A stretch of DNA of 7,738 nt from a virus. Taxonomy: Duplodnaviria; Heunggongvirae; Uroviricota; Caudoviricetes. Where the stretch lies: the IMG/VR virus record IMGVR_UViG_2703718823_000003; one strand, written 5' to 3'. This document shows positions 379 to 6,590 of this stretch, one piece after another. Position 1 is the first letter of the stretch; every line of letters begins with the position of its first letter. The notes beneath the pieces are model-generated. The model saw nothing but the letters and a program-made list of their open reading frames with translations. It had not been told where the DNA came from and searched no databases. The translations under genes and the position numbers were made by a program.

Positions 379-678
379 ATGAGAACATATTTATCTGGCT
401 TGACTGCCAGCGGCCCCGCTCGGCCTGAAATCCGCCCAGGAGATATTTTCAGAGATAACTACGGTGGCGTTGTTGAGATTAAAGGCGTGGCAGAACGGCG
501 CATTACCTACCGCCGTGAAGGCTACGAATATGATTGCGTGATGCCTGTTTATCAGTTCCAGCGTGATTTTTCTCTGGTACAGGCAGCGCCCCGCAGTAAA
601 CCAACCAGCAGGGAGAAAGCACTCGCCAATATTCAGGAAATAAGAAAGATGTTGAATGTATTCAGGGGTAAAAAATGA
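379..678 (+). CDS. hypothetical protein (99 aa), translationally coupled to the primase gene
   Basis: ATG 379 with GGGGA upstream. Its stop overlaps the primase start as ATGA (675-678). No recognisable motif. Confidence 0.55.
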   Translation: MRTYLSGLTASGPARPEIRPGDIFRDNYGGVVEIKGVAERRITYRREGYEYDCVMPVYQFQRDFSLVQAAPRSKPTSREKALANIQEIRKMLNVFRGKK

Positions 679-2423
679 AACTGGCACCGAACGTAAAAAA
701 ACAACCACGCGGAATAAAACACAAAGACACAGAGGTAATTATTTTCGCGGGTAGTGATGCGTGGGCACATGCAAAACAGTGGCAGGAGCAGGACGGCCCC
801 GCATCCGGCGATAATGTGCCGCCTGTGTGGCTTGGGCCAAATCAGCTTGCCGAACTTGATGCACTGAAAATTGTTCCTGATGGAAAAAAACGCGTAAGGC
901 TGTACCAGGCCGGAGAACTGGATTTGGTGGAGACCAAAAAGATTGGTCAGAAGCTGGCGGCGGCAGATATTCAGGACGCAAATTTTTACCCCGAAGGAAT
1001 GCACGTCCAGAAGTGTGAAAACTGGCGGCGCTATCTGAATGCTGAGCGTGAAAATATTGCCGCAGGGCTTACCATGCCGGAGCAGAAAAATACGCAACTG
1101 GCACAAATGGCAGACAGTGAGCGCGCGCAGCTGCTTGCCGAGCGCTTTGATGGCGTTTGTGTGCATCCGGAAAGTGAAATCGTTCACGTATGGCGCGGCG
1201 GGGTATGGTGTCCGGTCAGCACAATGGAACTTAGCCGCGAAATGGTGGCGATCTATTCAGAGCACAGGGCCACTTTCAGCAAGCGCGTAATCAATAACGC
1301 CGTGGAAGCGTTAAAAGTTATTGCCGAACCAATGGGCGAGCCGTCCGGCGATTTGTTGCCGTTCGCCAATGGTGCGCTTGACCTGAAAACGGGGGAATTT
1401 TCCCCGCACACGCCGGAGAACTGGATCACCACGCACAACGGCATTGAGTACACGCCACCAGCACCAGGGGAGAATATCTGCGACAACGCGCCAAACTTTC
1501 ATAAATGGCTTGAGCACGCAGCCGGAAAAGACCCGCGCAAGATGATGCGTATATGTGCCGCGCTGTACATGATTATGGCGAACCGGTACGACTGGCAGAT
1601 GTTTATTGAGGCCACCGGAGAGGGCGGTAGCGGTAAAAGTACATTCACGCACATAGCCAGCCTTCTGGCAGGGAAACAGAACACGGTAAGCGCTGAAATG
1701 ACCTCACTTGATGATGCTGGTGGACGTGCGCAGGTTGTCGGGAGTCGTCTTATCGTCCTGGCTGACCAGCCGAAATATACAGGCGAAGGAACGGGCATCA
1801 AGAAAATCACGGGCGGCGACCCCGTGGAAATAAACCCGAAATATGAGAAGCGTTTTACGGCGGTAATCAGGGCGGTGGTGCTGGCTACCAACAATAACCC
1901 GATGATATTCACCGAGCGGGCCGGAGGTGTGTCACGCCGTCGGGTGATTTTCCGGTTCGACAACATTGTAAGGGAGGACGAAAAAGACAAGGATTTGCCG
2001 GAGAAGGTCGCGGCTGAAATCCCCGTAATTATCCGTCGCTTGCTGGCTAATTTTGCCGACCCTGAAAAGGCACGGGCTTTATTACTGGAACAGCGCGACG
2101 GTGATGAAGCTCTGGCAATAAAGCAACAGACGGATCCGGTTATTGAGTTTTGCCAGTTCCTGAATTTTCTGGAGGAAGCACGCGGCCTGATGATGGGCGG
2201 CGGTGGCGATTCAGTGAAGTACACGACCAGAAACAGCCTTTACCGCGTCTATCTGGCGTTTATGGCATACGCAGGCAGGAGCAAACCGCTAAACGTGGCT
2301 GAGTTCAGCAAGGCCATGAAGCCAGCGGCAAAAGTTTACGGACATGAATATATTACGCGGAGAGTTAAGGGAGTAACGCAGACCAACGCAATTACAACTG
2401 ATGATTGTGACGCGTTTTTATAA
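675..2423 (+). CDS. Satellite/phage-type DNA primase-helicase replication initiator (P4-alpha / D5-like P-loop NTPase family), 582 aa
   Basis: Longest ORF in the window. Walker A motif GEGGSGKST encoded around nt 1614-1643, followed by a hydrophobic-stretch-plus-acidic Walker-B-like segment (RLIVLADQ). Size and layout resemble primase/helicase proteins of P4-like and PICI elements. An iteron array lies immediately downstream. Family assignment is from motif recognition, not a search. Confidence 0.85.
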   Translation: MKLAPNVKKQPRGIKHKDTEVIIFAGSDAWAHAKQWQEQDGPASGDNVPPVWLGPNQLAELDALKIVPDGKKRVRLYQAGELDLVETKKIGQKLAAADIQDANFYPEGMHVQKCENWRRYLNAERENIAAGLTMPEQKNTQLAQMADSERAQLLAERFDGVCVHPESEIVHVWRGGVWCPVSTMELSREMVAIYSEHRATFSKRVINNAVEALKVIAEPMGEPSGDLLPFANGALDLKTGEFSPHTPENWITTHNGIEYTPPAPGENICDNAPNFHKWLEHAAGKDPRKMMRICAALYMIMANRYDWQMFIEATGEGGSGKSTFTHIASLLAGKQNTVSAEMTSLDDAGGRAQVVGSRLIVLADQPKYTGEGTGIKKITGGDPVEINPKYEKRFTAVIRAVVLATNNNPMIFTERAGGVSRRRVIFRFDNIVREDEKDKDLPEKVAAEIPVIIRRLLANFADPEKARALLLEQRDGDEALAIKQQTDPVIEFCQFLNFLEEARGLMMGGGGDSVKYTTRNSLYRVYLAFMAYAGRSKPLNVAEFSKAMKPAAKVYGHEYITRRVKGVTQTNAITTDDCDAFL

Positions 2424-2436
2424 TTTTTTGTAAAAG

Positions 2437-2664
2437 CCCTCTACCCCATCTACCTGAATGAAATAAACGCATATTATTCAACATGATAAGTGGGTAGAGG
2501 GCTAGGTAGAAGGCTAATAAAACCTCTCTACCTCTTCTACCATGATTAAGATCGTTTGTGAGGGGCGGGTAGAGGATGGGTAGAGGGCCACGAAAGCCCT
2601 CTACCCATCTGAAAGCCGCGCCATTACTGACATGAAAGATGATTAGGTAGAGAGGTAGAGGAGG
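2437..2664. repeat. Iteron array, probable origin of replication
   Basis: About 11 copies of the core GGTAGAG(G) / (C)CTCTACC in both orientations, for example 2437-2445, 2446-2454, 2492-2501, 2504-2513, 2523-2532, 2533-2541, 2568-2576, 2579-2587, 2597-2606, 2646-2655, 2654-2661. The block 2568-2588 is an inverted copy of 2436-2454. Position directly 3' of the primase gene matches the usual pri-ori arrangement in PICI/P4-type elements. Confidence 0.7.
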
Positions 2665-2709
2665 TGCACCACAACCTAAAACTTTTTAAACACGAGGGTA
2701 AAAATAAAA

Positions 2710-2967
2710 ATGCACACATCAGGAAGATTTAACAAATCACTCAAAAAACGCAGAGACAGAACAGAACCGAAATATCGCGCGTTAGACATGACAGAGCACG
2801 CTTTAAAGGTGGCAATCAGAACGATAGACCGCCACGCGGGGGGAAGGATACGCGAAAGCACATCCCGAACTGATAAGCGCATTCATGACCACGACGGCGG
2901 CAAATTTTGCCACGCTGACAGAGCGGGAGATTGCCGAAGCGGAACAGGTAACAACCATCAACGTTAA
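2710..2967 (+). CDS. hypothetical small basic protein (85 aa), low confidence
   Basis: ATG 2710 with GAGGG about 12 nt upstream. Product is Arg/His/Asp-rich and low in complexity, with several rare codons (AGA, AGG, ATA). It fills the gap between ori and the SSB-like gene. Confidence 0.3.
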   Translation: MHTSGRFNKSLKKRRDRTEPKYRALDMTEHALKVAIRTIDRHAGGRIRESTSRTDKRIHDHDGGKFCHADRAGDCRSGTGNNHQR

Positions 2968-2985: not shown

Positions 2986-3396
2986 ATGACAGCACAGATA
3001 GCAGCTTACGGGCGGCTGGTGGACGACCCGCAGGTAAAACAGACCAGCAAGGGCACACCAATGACGCTGGCACGTATGGCGGTATCGTTGCCATGTAGTC
3101 AGGCGCAGGATGGGCAGGCGACGTTATGGCTATCGGTCATCGCATTTGGTAAGCAGGCCGACTTCCTGGCTAAACATCAAAAAGGCGACGTTGCCAGCGT
3201 ATCCGGCACGATGCAGGTCAGCCAGTGGACCGGACAGAACGGGGAAACGCGGCAGGGTTATCAGGTTATTGCAGACAGCGTAATCAGTGCCCGTGCGGCA
3301 CGTCCTGGCGGGAACAGACGCAAAACCACAGGCACACAGGGTAATCAGCCACCAGCGGGAGACGATGACCCCTACGGTGATGATATTCAGTTCTGA
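2986..3396 (+). CDS. ssb: Single-stranded DNA-binding protein (SSB family, OB fold) with a divergent acidic C-terminal tail, 136 aa
   Basis: Translation aligns by eye with E. coli SSB: an N-terminal OB-fold pattern (GRLVDDPQV.. / LWLSVIAFGKQAD.. / VSQWTGQNGETRQGYQVIADSV), a Gly/Gln/Pro-rich linker, and an acidic tail DDDPYGDDIQF (compare DFDDDIPF). Comparison is from memory. Confidence 0.8.
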   Translation: MTAQIAAYGRLVDDPQVKQTSKGTPMTLARMAVSLPCSQAQDGQATLWLSVIAFGKQADFLAKHQKGDVASVSGTMQVSQWTGQNGETRQGYQVIADSVISARAARPGGNRRKTTGTQGNQPPAGDDDPYGDDIQF

Positions 3397-3406
3397 GGGG
3401 GTGACG

Positions 3407-3679
3407 ATGGTACATGACCGCATAGCGGAGGAACTCGAGGCAAAAGGCTTTTACCGGAGGGCATCGGCGCGATGGGGTGAAGTCATGCTGCTGGTGGAGA
3501 CAGACAAGGAACGGCATCAGGTTACGATGCGACGGCTGGAATGTTCCAGGAAGGCACAGAAGCCACCGGAGCCGCCGGATAACTTCGGAGACCTGAGAAA
3601 GGCAGTAGATCGCACTTATGCTGAAATGGGTATAGATGGTGTAAGCGATGAAATATGGCGTAATTACCCAGACAGCTAA
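3407..3679 (+). CDS. hypothetical protein (90 aa from ATG 3407)
   Basis: GAGGGGG (3395-3401) sits 5 nt before ATG 3407. The track ORF starts at an upstream GTG (3287) inside the SSB gene, which is less likely. Followed by terminator hairpins. Confidence 0.6.
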   Translation: MVHDRIAEELEAKGFYRRASARWGEVMLLVETDKERHQVTMRRLECSRKAQKPPEPPDNFGDLRKAVDRTYAEMGIDGVSDEIWRNYPDS

Positions 3680-4126: not shown

Positions 4127-5181
4127 TGACAGTAAAAGCAATAGCACTTAACACTAACCAGCTTTTTGCGTACCTGAATCGCGAGGATATTGCGGAATTT
4201 AAATTCAGTCCGCTGTTTACCGCGCTGTTTTTCCCGAACGTGGCGACATTCAACACACAGGACATCATGTTAGATAACCTGGATATTGAAGAAGTCACTA
4301 TGTCGGCGTTTTGTTCGCCTATGGTGGGTAGCCAGGTTCAGCGCGATAAAGGGTACGAAACAAGCATTATTCGCCCTGGCTACATGAAGCCAAAACACGA
4401 AATCGATCCATTAAAAACAATAATGCGCATGGCTGGAGAAGATCCAGCACAGCTTAACGACCCTACCTACCGCCGTATGCGCCTGATTACTGGCAACATG
4501 CGCCGCCAGATAAACGCCATTAAAGCGCGCGTGGAATGGCTGGCGGTAAATGCGGTAACGACCGGAAAAAACATCATTGAGGGCGAAGGCATAGAGCGCT
4601 ATGAAATCGACTGGAAGATACCGGAAAAAAACATCATAGAGCAGGCCGACGGTAAAAAATGGTCCGAGCAGGATAAAGACATACACGATCCAATCTATGA
4701 CATTGAGCTATACGCAGATCAGGCAGGTTGCCCCGCCAACGTCATGATTATGGGCGTTGATGTATGGCGCATGTTACGCAGCTTTAAAAAATTCCGTGAG
4801 CTGTACGATCTTTCCCGTGGTTCAGAATCCGCCGCAGAGCTGGCATGTAAAAACCTGGGCGAAGTGGTGAGCTTTAAGGGCTATCTTGGTGATCTGGCCC
4901 TTATCGTCTATTCCGGCAAATACACTGACAGCGACGGTACCGAAAAATATTTCCTTGAGCCTGATTTGCTGGTCCTGGGCAACACCAACAATAAAGGGCT
5001 GGTGGCCTATGGTGCGATTATGGAACAGGAAGCGGTCAGAACTGGCGCAACGCAAAACATGTACTACCCGAAAAACTGGATTGAGGACGGCGATCCGGCG
5101 ATTGAGTACGTGCAGACACACAGCGCACCGCAGCCGGTACCGGCAGATATTCGCAAATTTGTTACCGTCAAAATTGGTTAA
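4126..5181 (+). CDS. Major capsid protein, lambda gpE-like family, 351 aa
   Basis: Translation shares multiple collinear blocks with lambda gpE as recalled: EFKFSPLF..LFF (lambda KFKFDPLF..LFF), PGYMKPKHEI (PGYVKPKHEV), DPTYRRMRLI (DPAYRRRRII), WSEQDKDIHDP.YDIELYA (WSKRDKSTYDP.DDIEAYA), VSFKGYLGDLALIVYSGKY (VSYKGMYGDVAIVVYSGQY), VLGNT..GL.AYG (VLGNT..GL.TYG), YPKNW...GDPA (YPKNW..TGDPA). Length is close to lambda gpE (341 aa). Confidence 0.9.
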   Translation: MTVKAIALNTNQLFAYLNREDIAEFKFSPLFTALFFPNVATFNTQDIMLDNLDIEEVTMSAFCSPMVGSQVQRDKGYETSIIRPGYMKPKHEIDPLKTIMRMAGEDPAQLNDPTYRRMRLITGNMRRQINAIKARVEWLAVNAVTTGKNIIEGEGIERYEIDWKIPEKNIIEQADGKKWSEQDKDIHDPIYDIELYADQAGCPANVMIMGVDVWRMLRSFKKFRELYDLSRGSESAAELACKNLGEVVSFKGYLGDLALIVYSGKYTDSDGTEKYFLEPDLLVLGNTNNKGLVAYGAIMEQEAVRTGATQNMYYPKNWIEDGDPAIEYVQTHSAPQPVPADIRKFVTVKIG

Positions 5182-5983: not shown

Positions 5984-6211
5984 ACGGGTCCTTTCCGGCA
6001 TATGGACCCGTTACGGGGCGGCGACCTCGCGGTTTTTCGCTATTTATGAGATTTTTTGAGGGGGTGGTTGTTGTTTAATTGTTTGGTATATCTAATTGAT
6101 AAGTAAGGTAAAAATAAAATAAATACAACAACCTTACGATGTATTTTGATGTCATTAATGTGAAAAAATTCAATGATATCAAATGGTTTTGTAAAAACAC
6201 ATGGTTGTTGT
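5984..6211 (+). other. cos site 1 (lambda-type cosQ-flank, cosN, cosB-like region), + orientation
   Basis: TTTACGGGTCCTTTCCGG...GTTACG | GGGCGGCGACCT | CGCGG matches the lambda right-end/cosN/left-end junction as recalled; the 12-nt cohesive-end sequence GGGCGGCGACCT is at 6016-6027. Downstream there are three copies of GGTTGTTGT (6066-6074 direct, 6125-6133 inverted, 6203-6211 direct), spaced like lambda cosB R3/R2/R1. Confidence 0.7.
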
Positions 6212-6404: not shown

Positions 6405-6590
6405 ATGTCCGGTTTTAGTGTCTGTTTTTTGCGCATGTCCGGTTCATGGAAAGCATGTTTTTATATTTTTCATATGGTTAACTTGCAGAGAAACCGGACA
6501 TGGATCCCGGAAAATTTTCATAAATAGTGAAAACGCGCGAGGTCGCCGCCCCGTAACGGGCCATAATTCCAGGAAGGACCCGACGACACC
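6405..6590 (-). other. cos site 2 (lambda-type cosQ-flank, cosN, cosB-like region), inverted orientation
   Basis: The reverse complement of 6500-6590 reads ..GGGTCCTTCC.GG....CCCGTTACG | GGGCGGCGACCT | CGCGCGTTTTCACTATTTATGAAAATTTTCCGG, almost identical to the lambda cos left end as recalled; cosN is at 6540-6551 on the minus strand. Three copies of ATGTCCGGTT / AACCGGACAT lie at 6492-6501, 6435-6444 and 6405-6414, at R3/R2/R1-like distances. Confidence 0.7.

What the first reader, a model, noticed from the sequence alone, without database searches (positions are those of the whole stretch)
2437..2664. Bidirectional iteron array downstream of primase, probable ori
About 11 copies of GGTAGAG(G) appear in both orientations within about 230 bp, with larger inverted blocks (2436-2454 versus 2568-2588) and a direct copy at 2595-2610. 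This is denser and more symmetric than ordinary intergenic sequence. It is the likely binding array for the primase/initiator and the element's replicon specificity determinant.
Basis: partly seen in the sequence, partly recalled or inferred. Interest (0 to 1): 0.45.

Follow-up and report, generated by a model that had tools for sequence, protein, structure and literature searches.

The report
Replication origin of an E. coli PICI
The repeat cluster is real and is almost certainly the replication origin of a phage-inducible chromosomal island closely related to EcCICFT073, whose equivalent region has already been tested experimentally, so it is a well-supported but ordinary feature.

Summary
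All 11 GGTAGA hexamers in the 7.7-kb window lie in 2440-2659, where about 1.8 would be expected by chance over the whole window. They start 16 nt after the stop codon of the "primase" gene.

The window is an E. coli phage-inducible chromosomal island (PICI) of the EcCICFT073 type. The matching intergenic region of EcCICFT073 is the published, plasmid-tested ori (Fillol-Salom 2018).

Across 167 related loci an array sits in the same place in 165. The hexamer cores keep their position and orientation and are more conserved than the spacers. More distant relatives carry GGTATAC or TGTTCA(C) (the latter P4-like) in the same slots.

The protein's C-terminus matches the P4 alpha origin-binding domain (PDB 1KA8), and its helicase core matches SaPI5 PriRep5 (7OLA). 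Two residues of that C-terminal domain track the base at iteron position 8 in 103 of 104 loci. The neighbouring genes and the N-terminal domain do not track it.

This is a new member of a known kind, and interest is low to moderate. One extra point: the array resembles a P4 ori-like module joined to a P4 crr-like module.

The parts
675..2423 (+). pri-rep gene. It encodes a 582-aa initiator helicase with a D5_N domain, an SF3 helicase core (DUF5906) and a Pox_D5 C-terminal domain. No Zn-ribbon or Toprim primase domain was detected.
   Evidence: Pfam D5_N 1.1e-15, DUF5906 2.5e-10, Pox_D5 4.4e-4. phrog_864 'DNA primase' 7.8e-170. PDB 7OLA (SaPI5 PriRep5) E=1.6e-14 over residues 186-437. Residues 1-150 match no Pfam family, whereas the Morganella relative L005 has Zn_Ribbon_Prim and Toprim_3.
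2130..2396 (+). Part of the gene encoding the C-terminal origin-binding (winged-helix) domain, residues 486-574.
   Evidence: phmmer hit to PDB 1KA8, the phage P4 alpha origin-binding domain, E=5.5e-6, covering residues 486-574 against chain residues 2-89.
2292..2312 (+). Codons for NVAEFSK (residues 540-546), at the start of the third predicted helix of the C-terminal domain. Ala542 and Ser545 co-vary with iteron position 8.
   Evidence: The A..S form goes with GGTAGAnG iterons and the N..G form with GGTAGAnA in 103 of 104 loci, or 66 of 67 distinct oris. The helix placement comes from a low-confidence single-sequence model (pLDDT 59) and is only indicative.
2440..2454 (-). Iteron pair 1 (GGTAGAG at 2439-2445 and GGTAGAT at 2448-2454 on the minus strand). 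This is the left boundary of the AT-rich region.
   Evidence: Same offsets (17 and 26 nt after the stop codon) and same orientation in all 9 E. coli/Shigella relatives checked.
2455..2492 (.). AT-rich spacer, the presumed DNA-unwinding region. It is flanked by iterons that point in opposite directions.
   Evidence: 74% A+T. It is the least stable 30-mer of the intergenic region (dG -32.6 kcal/mol against a window mean of -41.1, sd 3.7). The corresponding gap averages 75% A+T over 76 distinct related oris.
2493..2510 (+). Iteron pair 2 (GGTAGAG and GGTAGAA). This is the right boundary of the AT-rich region.
2527..2541 (-). Iteron pair 3 (GGTAGAG and GGTAGAA on the minus strand).
2568..2584 (+). 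Iteron pair 4 (GGTAGAG twice). This is the start of the second, crr-like half of the array.
2600..2605 (-). Single iteron on the minus strand (GGTAGAG occupies 2599-2605). The CCATCTGAA that follows looks like a decayed second copy.
   Evidence: (family D1).
2609..2629 (.). Conserved non-iteron block CTGAAAGCCGCGCCATTACTG. Its function is unknown.
   Evidence: Column conservation is at or above about 0.9 across 68 distinct oris and the block is invariant in a 4-way alignment. A CTGAAA in the same relative place occurs in both P4 crr units.
2646..2659 (+). Iteron pair 5 (GGTAGAG twice, 8 bp apart).
2678..2691 (.). Conserved A-tract/T-tract AAAACTTTTTAAAC after the last iteron pair.
   Evidence: An A4+(C/G)T4+ motif lies 28-33 nt after the start of the last tandem pair in 74 of 78 distinct GGTAGA-type oris. 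Shuffled sequences contain one anywhere in 3% of cases. Both P4 crr units have AAAAAAAACTTTTTT or AAAAAAAATTTTTT in the same relative place.
2710..2967 (+). First gene after the origin (85 aa, phrog_1231, function unknown). It is followed by ssb (2986-3396).
   Evidence: The DNA flanking the array on this side is shuffled relative to the iteron subtype, so this gene product is unlikely to be the iteron binder.

Best explanation
The array at 2437-2664, with accessory conserved blocks out to about 2691, is the vegetative replication origin of an EcCICFT073-type phage-inducible chromosomal island.

Proposed mechanism:
1. A helper phage induces the island and the island excises. This step is taken from the literature.
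2. The product of ORF 675-2423 binds the GGTAGA(G) hexamers through its C-terminal winged-helix domain. The protein is a self-loading SF3-type helicase and initiator. Binding is inferred from homology and co-variation.
3. Iterons within a pair are 8-12 bp apart, about one helical turn, so they lie on one face of the DNA. Pairs of opposite orientation flank the 38-bp, 74% A+T spacer at 2455-2492.
4. This geometry would let two oppositely oriented helicase assemblies form and melt that spacer, as proposed for SaPI Rep proteins. This step is inferred.
5. The second half of the array (2568-2691) resembles a P4 crr unit. It probably serves as an auxiliary binding module that raises local initiator concentration or loops onto the first half. 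This step is inferred.
6. No primase domain was detected, so priming is probably done by the host DnaG or by the uncharacterised N-terminal domain. This is an open point.

The core GGTAGA defines the origin class. Positions 7-9 of the iteron, together with residues 542 and 545 of the protein, appear to fine-tune cognate recognition.
For: Shown here:
- All 11 GGTAGA copies of the window fall in 220 bp directly after the gene, against 1.8 expected in the whole window.
- The window is collinear with EcCICFT073 (NC_004431, 1377930-1389176) at about 90% identity.
- The EcCICFT073 intergenic region carries GGTAGA at the same offsets and in the same orientations.
- Of 167 related loci, 165 have a 6-12-copy array in the 330 nt after the gene: GGTAGA in 126, GGTATAC in 26 and TGAACA in 13. 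The layout is the same.
- Across 68 distinct oris, core columns are more conserved than spacer columns (0.918 against 0.726, Mann-Whitney p=1e-14).
- The C-terminal domain matches the P4 origin-binding domain 1KA8 (E=5.5e-6) and the helicase core matches SaPI5 PriRep5 7OLA (E=1.6e-14).
- The C-terminal domain is about 34% identical between iteron classes, against about 62% for the helicase core.
- Within the GGTAGA class, the A..S or N..G motif predicts iteron position 8 in 103 of 104 loci. DUF4222 alleles, N-terminal-domain clusters and downstream-flank clusters are all shuffled relative to it.
- The array region has no sigma-70-like promoter, terminator or Rfam match.
- Lambda-type cosN sites lie elsewhere in the window.

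From the literature:
- A pri-ori plasmid of EcCICFT073 is maintained at the restrictive temperature. The delta-ori and delta-pri versions are not, or are maintained much less well. Delta-pri also abolishes AlpA-driven replication (PMC6092414, Figs 2b and 6e).
- SaPI Rep winged-helix domains bind penta- or hexanucleotide iterons immediately downstream of rep, with at least two iterons on each side of an AT-rich centre pointing in opposite directions (PMC9371898).
Against: - No experiment exists for this allele. Binding, melting and the double-assembly geometry are inferred.
- In the published EcCICFT073 test, deleting ori reduced colony numbers but is not reported to have abolished them.
- The co-varying residues are encoded only about 130-350 bp from the iterons, so linkage could contribute, although comparably close flanks are shuffled.
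- One natural mismatch exists (L032: A..S protein with an A8-type ori). The 3' flank may therefore not be a strict specificity determinant.
- The AT-rich spacer is not the least stable DNA in the window.
- The structure model of the C-terminal domain is low confidence (pLDDT 59).
Confidence: 0.9

Rival explanations
1. The repeats are an operator array for a transcription factor (AlpA, the DUF4222 protein, the 85-aa downstream product or PerC) that controls the downstream ssb-perC-capsid genes. On this reading they are not an origin.
For: The array lies between two gene blocks, just upstream of the 2710 ORF. The conserved stretch 2678-2709 includes the ribosome-binding region of that ORF. Iterons in other replicons often also act as autoregulatory operators (general knowledge).
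Against: - No sigma-70-like promoter or terminator was found in 2300-2800.
- DUF4222 alleles and downstream-flank clusters are shuffled relative to the iteron subtype. Only the pri-rep C-terminus tracks it.
- The homologous EcCICFT073 region behaves as an ori in a plasmid assay (PMC6092414).
- The same array follows the homologous gene in elements whose downstream genes differ.
Confidence: 0.05
2. The array is a packaging recognition site, a cosB- or pac-like set of terminase small-subunit or Rpp binding repeats.
For: Terminase recognition sites are often clustered short repeats. The element depends on helper-phage packaging (PMC6092414).
Against: - Exact lambda-type cosN 12-mers lie at 6016-6027 and 6540-6551, more than 3 kb away. 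This matches the two cos sites mapped in EcCICFT073 (PMC6092414).
- The array stays next to the initiator gene in relatives that have quite different packaging content.
- No similar DNA was found in 50,697 phage records.
Confidence: 0.02
3. The array is a decayed or non-functional remnant: repeats kept by descent and gene conversion in a defective island.
For: In the closest complete genome, some neighbouring genes of the island are annotated as pseudogenes. No experiment exists for this allele.
Against: - Hexamer cores are selectively conserved relative to spacers across 68 distinct sequences.
- The pri-rep ORF is intact.
- The array changes in concert with the binding domain. This is not expected of decaying DNA.
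Confidence: 0.03

Closest known systems
EcCICFT073 pri-rep/ori replicon (Gram-negative PICI; Fillol-Salom et al. 2018, PMC6092414)
   Same: - Same gene order: DUF4222, pri-rep, array, small ORF, ssb, perC, capsid homologue, decoration homologue.
- About 90% DNA identity over the island.
- Same intergenic position for the array.
- Same GGTAGA cores at the same offsets and orientations.
- Two lambda-type cosN sites.
   Different: - The iteron 3' flank is G-G(G) here against C/T-A in EcCICFT073.
- Here there are two forward copies after the AT-rich region and two reverse copies after them. EcCICFT073 has one forward and three reverse.
- The protein has A542/S545 instead of N/G.
- The N-terminal 140 residues are only 67% identical.
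- The integration site differs: next to tRNA-Pro and yejM in the closest genome, against the pepT/phoQ region in CFT073.
SaPI replication origins and Rep/PriRep self-loading helicases (PMC9371898; PDB 7OLA)
   Same: - The origin lies immediately 3' of rep.
- It has 6-12 short iterons.
- An AT-rich centre has at least two iterons on each side pointing in opposite directions.
- The initiator is a helicase with a C-terminal winged-helix domain.
- The helicase core is detectably homologous (E=1.6e-14).
   Different: - The host clade differs (Gram-positive).
- The iteron sequences are unrelated.
- SaPI5 PriRep5 carries a primase domain, or a separate Pri protein exists. No primase domain was found here.
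- The array here has an extra crr-like second half with conserved non-iteron blocks.
Phage P4 alpha protein with its ori and crr (NC_001609; PDB 1KA8)
   Same: - The C-terminal origin-binding domain is homologous, and D5_N and the SF3 helicase core are shared.
- P4 crr lies immediately 3' of alpha, as this array lies 3' of pri-rep.
- A crr unit (iterons, CTGAAA, about 25 nt, a tandem pair, then an A/T tract) resembles 2568-2691.
- P4 ori (three forward copies, one reverse, an AT-rich stretch, two forward) resembles 2437-2545 read in reverse.
- Relatives L004 and L079 use TGTTCAC iterons like the P4 type-1 repeat TGTTCACC.
   Different: - P4 alpha (777 aa) has Zn-ribbon and Toprim primase domains that are absent here.
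- P4 ori and crr are about 4.7 kb apart. Here the two modules are contiguous.
- The iteron here is GGTAGAG, not TGTTCACC. On one strand both fit T-N-T-W-C.
- The C-terminal domains of the TGTTCA-class relatives are only about 30-34% identical to this one.
Iteron-controlled plasmid origins (pSC101, F, P1, RK2 and similar; RepA-type initiators)
   Same: Clustered initiator-binding repeats lie next to an AT-rich unwinding region and next to the initiator gene. The initiator uses a winged-helix fold (general knowledge).
   Different: - Plasmid iterons are 17-22 bp direct repeats. Here the units are 6-9 bp in both orientations.
- There is no exact DnaA box in the array.
- The initiator here is itself a helicase.
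- The region is almost absent from 72,556 plasmid records.

Membership tests
PICI/SaPI-type replication origin | Lies immediately 3' of the rep or pri-rep open reading frame | tested here: met
   The ORF ends at 2423 and the first iteron starts at 2440. The placement is the same in 165 of 167 related loci.
PICI/SaPI-type replication origin | Six to twelve short (penta- or hexanucleotide) iterons | tested here: met
   There are 11 GGTAGA hexamers, 0 of 200 shuffles reach this number, and none occurs elsewhere in the window.
PICI/SaPI-type replication origin | AT-rich region with at least two iterons on each side pointing in opposite directions | tested here: met
   Two minus-strand copies (2440, 2449), then a 38-bp spacer of 74% A+T, then two plus-strand copies (2493, 2505).
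PICI/SaPI-type replication origin | The adjacent initiator is a helicase with a C-terminal winged-helix origin-binding domain | tested here: met
   7OLA (SaPI5 PriRep5) E=1.6e-14 and 1KA8 (P4 origin-binding domain) E=5.5e-6. Pfam D5_N, DUF5906 and Pox_D5. This is sequence-level evidence only. The structure model was low confidence.
PICI/SaPI-type replication origin | Cloned rep plus ori drives autonomous replication that depends on rep and on ori | not testable with these tools
   Shown for the EcCICFT073 homologue (PMC6092414, Fig. 2b), not for this allele.
PICI/SaPI-type replication origin | Cognate specificity between the initiator's C-terminal domain and the iteron sequence | tested here: inconclusive
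   Co-variation is strong: class-level changes and 103 of 104 loci within the class, with shuffled controls. It is comparative evidence only, and there is one exception, L032.
EcCICFT073-type Gram-negative PICI (host element) | Rightward gene order of the replication module (pri-rep, then ori) followed by ssb, perC, capsid and decoration homologues and lambda-type cos sites. The int and alpA genes lie outside this window. | tested here: met
   The window is collinear with NC_004431 1381936-1389176. Domains are identified. cosN 12-mers are found. In the closest genome an integrase and an HTH regulator lie upstream.
Phage P4 alpha/ori/crr replicon | Initiator with an N-terminal Zn-ribbon and Toprim primase domain | tested here: not met
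   Residues 1-150 match no Pfam family at E<=1 apart from noise. The Morganella relative L005 scores Zn_Ribbon_Prim 6e-16 and Toprim_3 4e-13.
Phage P4 alpha/ori/crr replicon | Type-1 iteron TGTTCACC | tested here: not met
   The iteron here is GGTAGAG. The P4 repeats were read from NC_001609. TGTTCA-type arrays occur only in relatives with about 52-55% protein identity.
Phage P4 alpha/ori/crr replicon | Two cis elements (ori and crr) separated by several kb | tested here: not met
   Both halves are contiguous within 2437-2691. In P4, crr is at 4291-4590 and the type-1 repeats of ori are at 9310-9413.
Iteron plasmid oriV (RepA-type) | Direct 17-22 bp iterons plus DnaA boxes | tested here: not met
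   The units are 6-9 bp in both orientations. There is no exact DnaA box in the array, and one-mismatch hits are at chance level.

The most novel reading that the evidence does not exclude
Three linked claims make up the most novel reading.

1. The PICI origin is a fusion of two separable modules that phage P4 keeps 4.7 kb apart. One is an ori-like melting module (2437-2545). The other is a crr-like auxiliary module (2568-2691), which carries conserved non-iteron elements (CTGAAAGCC..., AAAACTTTTT). The two halves occur in swapped order in some lineages (L073, L137, L079).

2. Natural variation gives a readable recognition code for this family of winged-helix helicase initiators.
   - Residues 542 and 545 at the start of helix 3 pair with iteron position 8.
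   - Changes at two sites of the domain, GMMVGN to GMLVGN and R[A/N]RGMVTN to KTRGVVTN, accompany the switch from GGTATAC to GGTGTTC.

3. The initiator has lost its primase domain, so the conserved non-iteron blocks might be host-primase or primosome entry signals.
Probability: 0.35. Interest if true: 0.4.

Novelty: new member of a known kind. Interest (0 to 1): 0.22.

Why it matters
The call confirms an annotation that genome pipelines leave blank, since the region has no annotated feature in RefSeq records. It also places the window in a well-studied satellite family.

The practical value lies in engineering and typing. The ori subtype together with the C-terminal allele probably defines which PICI replicons can coexist or cross-activate. 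PICIs are being developed as delivery vehicles.

The comparative data provide a ready set of natural specificity variants for testing how SF3-type self-loading helicases read their origins:
- three iteron classes;
- two GGTAGA subclasses;
- one natural mismatch (L032);
- elements with the two halves of the array in swapped order.

None of this changes current understanding of PICI replication.

Tried and rejected
- **cf-PICI assignment.** I first took the element for a capsid-forming PICI because it encodes capsid and decoration homologues. The papers showed that EcCICFT073, which is L001 itself (ORFs c1499 and c1500), is a classical PICI packaged in helper capsids.
- **Genome-contig scan.** A scan with the single protein returned only 3 loci. 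The alignment-based scans of viral and metagenome contigs gave the useful sample.
- **Homologous-protein search.** The listing returned only homologues at 97% identity or more, so no deep alignment was available for structure prediction.
- **Structure prediction.** The single-sequence model of residues 468-582 was low confidence (pLDDT 59). I did not run a fold search on it.
- **Promoter, terminator and RNA scans.** The promoter/terminator scan and Rfam found nothing in the array.
- **DnaA boxes.** Matches were at chance level.
- **Hairpin in the conserved block.** I looked for a conserved hairpin in 2609-2640. EcCICFT073 and some distant relatives can pair there (TTACTGGC/GCCAGTAA, or CTGAATCCCTTG/CAAGGGATTCAG). 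The window sequence cannot, so a conserved structure is not supported (read).
- **P4 iteron papers.** A literature search for the original P4 iteron papers found nothing in the held library. I read the P4 repeats from the GenBank record instead.

Full report
**1. The observation**

The sequence between 2424 and 2709 is the gap between a 582-aa ORF (675-2423) and an 85-aa ORF (2710-2967). GGTAGA occurs 11 times in the window on both strands. All 11 copies lie in 2440-2659. Dinucleotide-preserving shuffles of the whole 7738 bases give a mean of 1.83 and never more than 6.

Eight copies read GGTAGAG and three read GGTAGAT or GGTAGAA. The orientations are: two minus (2440, 2449), two plus (2493, 2505), two minus (2527, 2536), two plus (2568, 2579), one minus (2600), two plus (2646, 2654). 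Spacing within pairs is 8-12 bp.

**2. What the window is**

Domain scans give the following gene order:
- a DUF4222 gene;
- a D5_N / SF3-helicase / Pox_D5 protein annotated as 'DNA primase';
- the array;
- a small ORF;
- ssb;
- a PerC-family gene;
- a lambda-E-type major capsid homologue;
- a lambda-D-type decoration homologue.

Megablast against complete E. coli genomes finds the same block in 58 genomes at 80% coverage or more. One of them is E. coli CFT073, at 1381936-1389176 and about 90% identity.

That CFT073 locus runs from an integrase gene to phoQ and contains a capsid and a decoration homologue. It is EcCICFT073, the prototype Gram-negative phage-inducible chromosomal island. The paper names its capsid and decoration ORFs c1499 and c1500 (PMC6092414).

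I first mistook the element for a capsid-forming PICI. The papers correct this: EcCICFT073 is a classical PICI packaged in helper capsids through lambda-type cos sites. The window also carries two exact lambda cosN 12-mers, at 6016-6027 and 6540-6551.

**3. Published evidence on the homologous region**

Fillol-Salom et al. [quoted passage not shown] They also report that an EcCICFT073 pri-ori fragment maintains a thermosensitive plasmid at the restrictive temperature. The delta-pri version does not, and the delta-ori version gives significantly fewer colonies. AlpA-driven replication of the island requires pri (PMC6092414, Figs 2a, 2b, 6e).

The EcCICFT073 intergenic region (L001 8061-8348) aligns with the window's region and has 11 GGTAGA cores at essentially the same offsets and orientations.

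**4. Conservation in relatives**

I collected 171 loci:
- 8 E. coli chromosomal regions;
- 3 loci from a species-representative genome scan;
- 160 loci from viral and metagenomic contigs.

Of these, 167 loci have at least 250 bp after the gene. In the 330 nt downstream, the commonest strand-collapsed hexamer is:
- GGTAGA in 126 loci (9-12 copies);
- GGTATA(C) in 26;
- TGAACA(C) in 13;
- nothing repeated in 2 (L142, L143).

The layout is the same in all classes:
- a reverse pair;
- an AT-rich gap;
- forward copies;
- reverse copies;
- a forward pair;
- one reverse copy;
- a spacer of about 30 nt;
- a forward pair.

In an alignment of 68 distinct GGTAGA-type origins, the 66 core columns have mean conservation 0.918. 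The 162 non-core columns inside 2437-2664 have 0.726 (Mann-Whitney p=1e-14).

**5. The protein that should bind**

The helicase core (residues 186-437) matches SaPI5 PriRep5, PDB 7OLA, at E=1.6e-14. Residues 486-574 match the phage P4 alpha origin-binding domain, PDB 1KA8, at E=5.5e-6.

The SaPI paper describes these proteins as self-loading helicases. Their C-terminal winged-helix domain recognises penta- or hexanucleotide iterons located right after rep. At least two iterons lie on each side of an AT-rich centre and point in opposite directions (PMC9371898). The window fits this description feature by feature.

One correction to the label is needed. Residues 1-150 match no Pfam family. The 794-aa Morganella relative has Zn_Ribbon_Prim and Toprim_3 domains, as P4 alpha is known to have. 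The window protein is an initiator helicase without a recognisable primase domain.

**6. Co-variation**

Between iteron classes, the C-terminal domain is about 34% identical and the helicase core about 62-63%.

Within the clade at about 53% identity to the window protein, GGTATACA and GGTGTTCA iterons occupy the same slots. The C-terminal domains there are up to 97% identical. The consistent differences are GMMVGN against GMLVGN, and R[A/N]RGMVTN against KTRGVVTN.

Within the GGTAGA class, position 8 of the iteron depends on the protein motif:
- It is G in 80-93% of copies when the protein reads NVA[E/D]FSK.
- It is A in 82-100% of copies, and never G in 69 of the 73 loci, when the protein reads [N/S]VN[D/E]FGK.

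Because these residues (540-546, nt 2292-2312) are encoded close to the array, I checked for linkage. The motif predicts the iteron subtype in 103 of 104 loci, or 66 of 67 distinct origins. Three other features are all shuffled relative to the subtype:
- clusters of the DNA 60-300 bp beyond the array;
- clusters of the protein's N-terminal domain;
- clusters of the upstream DUF4222 gene.

That pattern favours functional coupling over hitch-hiking, and it argues against the neighbouring small proteins as the binders.

The exception is L032, which has an A..S protein with an A8-type origin. The 3' flank may therefore modulate recognition and not gate it.

A single-sequence structure model puts residues 541-555 in the third helix of the domain. 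The model is low confidence (pLDDT 59), so I treat this placement as indicative only.

**7. Mechanism**

The AT-rich gap 2455-2492 is 74% A+T. It is the least stable stretch of the intergenic region (dG for 30 nt of -32.6 kcal/mol against a window mean of -41.1, sd 3.7). The equivalent gap averages 75% A+T in 76 distinct relatives. Oppositely oriented iteron pairs flank it.

The most likely mechanism follows the model proposed for SaPI Reps (PMC9371898). Winged-helix domains dock on the iterons, oppositely oriented helicase assemblies form on either side, and the AT-rich DNA melts. Binding, melting and assembly geometry are all inferred here.

There is no sigma-70-like promoter, terminator or Rfam family in the array, and no exact DnaA box. 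The downstream genes are therefore probably read through the origin from upstream, in line with the rightward transcription described for Gram-negative PICIs.

**8. Comparison with P4**

The P4 GenBank record annotates crr, the 'cis required region for replication', at 4291-4590. This is immediately 3' of alpha, after its terminator, which is the same position as the PICI array. P4 also has 'ori type 1 repeats' of TGTTCACC in both crr and ori.

Read on the alpha strand, each 120-bp crr unit consists of iterons, CTGAAA, about 25 nt, a tandem pair and then an A8-C-T6 tract. The second half of the window array has the same order:
- 2568-2605: forward, forward, reverse;
- CTGAAAGCC... at 2609-2629;
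- a tandem pair at 2646-2659;
- AAAACTTTTT at 2678-2687.

The A/T tract sits at a fixed distance in 74 of 78 distinct GGTAGA-type origins. Shuffled sequences contain such a tract anywhere in 3% of cases.

The P4 ori (three forward copies, one reverse, an AT-rich stretch, two forward) resembles the first half of the window array read in reverse. Three lineages (L073, L137, L079) carry the two halves in swapped order.

I therefore read the PICI origin as an ori-like module joined to a crr-like module. This is an inference from architecture, not a tested claim.

On one strand the iterons of all classes fit T-N-T-W-C: TCTAC here, TATAC, TGTTC, and TGTTC in P4.

**9. Rivals**

- An operator array is disfavoured. 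There are no promoter signals, the candidate regulators' alleles are shuffled relative to the iteron subtype, and the published plasmid assay supports an origin.
- A packaging site is disfavoured. The cos sites lie more than 3 kb away, and no similar DNA exists in 50,697 phage records.
- A decaying remnant is disfavoured. The cores are selectively conserved and the ORF is intact.

**10. Verdict**

It describes the known type of origin of a known family of satellites, in an allele about 85% identical over pri-rep C-terminus plus ori to one that has been tested. I rate it a new member of a known kind, with low to moderate interest.

Four by-products are modestly new and testable:
- the two-residue / one-base co-variation;
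- the iteron class switches;
- the P4 ori-plus-crr architecture;
- the missing primase domain.

Noticed in passing
window 6016-6027 (+) and 6540-6551 (-): Two exact copies of the lambda cosN 12-mer GGGCGGCGACCT lie in opposite orientation about 520 bp apart. EcCICFT073 is reported to have two functional cos sites (PMC6092414). The opposite orientation was not examined further.
   Followed up: partly
window 675-1124 (residues 1-150 of the 'primase'): The N-terminal domain matches no Pfam family and lacks the Zn-ribbon and Toprim domains of P4-alpha-like relatives. It is also the most mosaic part of the protein. It is 39-100% identical among relatives whose helicase cores are 95-98% identical. 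Its function is unknown. It may bind a host or helper factor, or be a novel primase.
   Followed up: partly
window 2609-2629 and 2678-2691: Two non-iteron blocks inside or next to the array are almost invariant across 68 distinct origins: CTGAAAGCCGCGCCATTACTG and AAAACTTTTTAAAC. Both have counterparts in the P4 crr units. No function is assigned. Some relatives can form a hairpin at the first block, but the window sequence cannot.
   Followed up: partly
L073, L137, L079 (downstream of the initiator gene): In these lineages the two halves of the origin are in swapped order, with the crr-like half first and the AT-rich half second. This suggests two separable modules.
   Followed up: no
L142 and L143 (metagenome contigs OKVL01000192.1, OJZS01000060.1): These initiator homologues (about 55% identity) are followed by unrelated DNA with no repeat array. 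Either the origin lies elsewhere or the gene is orphaned.
   Followed up: no
L032 (IMGVR_UViG_3300029303_000153): This is a natural mismatch. The C-terminal domain is of the A..S type but sits next to an origin whose iterons are of the GGTAGA-n-A type. It is a candidate recombinant for testing whether the 3' flank matters.
   Followed up: partly
L001 about 8220-8230 (EcCICFT073 ori), against window 2585-2595: The EcCICFT073 origin has AGTGGATAA, whose reverse complement TTATCCACT matches 8 of 9 positions of a DnaA box, between iterons. The window has GGCCACGAA at that place. The box is therefore not conserved in the family.
   Followed up: partly
window 3287-3679 (the PerC domain occupies residues 41-129 of the ORF as listed): The island encodes a PerC-family regulator (Pfam E=1.6e-44). 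The 2018 paper notes that some PICI PerC homologues activate the LEE pathogenicity island. The listed ORF overlaps the end of ssb, so the true start is probably downstream. The homologous CDS in the closest genome (L002 9381-9653) is 273 nt.
   Followed up: no
L002 8684-8963 (NZ_CP075697.1), homologue of window 2710-2967: In the closest complete genome the first gene after the origin is annotated as a frameshifted pseudogene, and two upstream island genes are annotated as partial. In the window the 85-aa ORF is intact.
   Followed up: no
H81, plasmid record CP088587.1 (32,560 bp), 17486-17908: This is one of only two plasmid records with similarity to the initiator C-terminus plus origin (74% identity). 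It may be an excised or captured PICI-like replicon. It was not examined.
   Followed up: no
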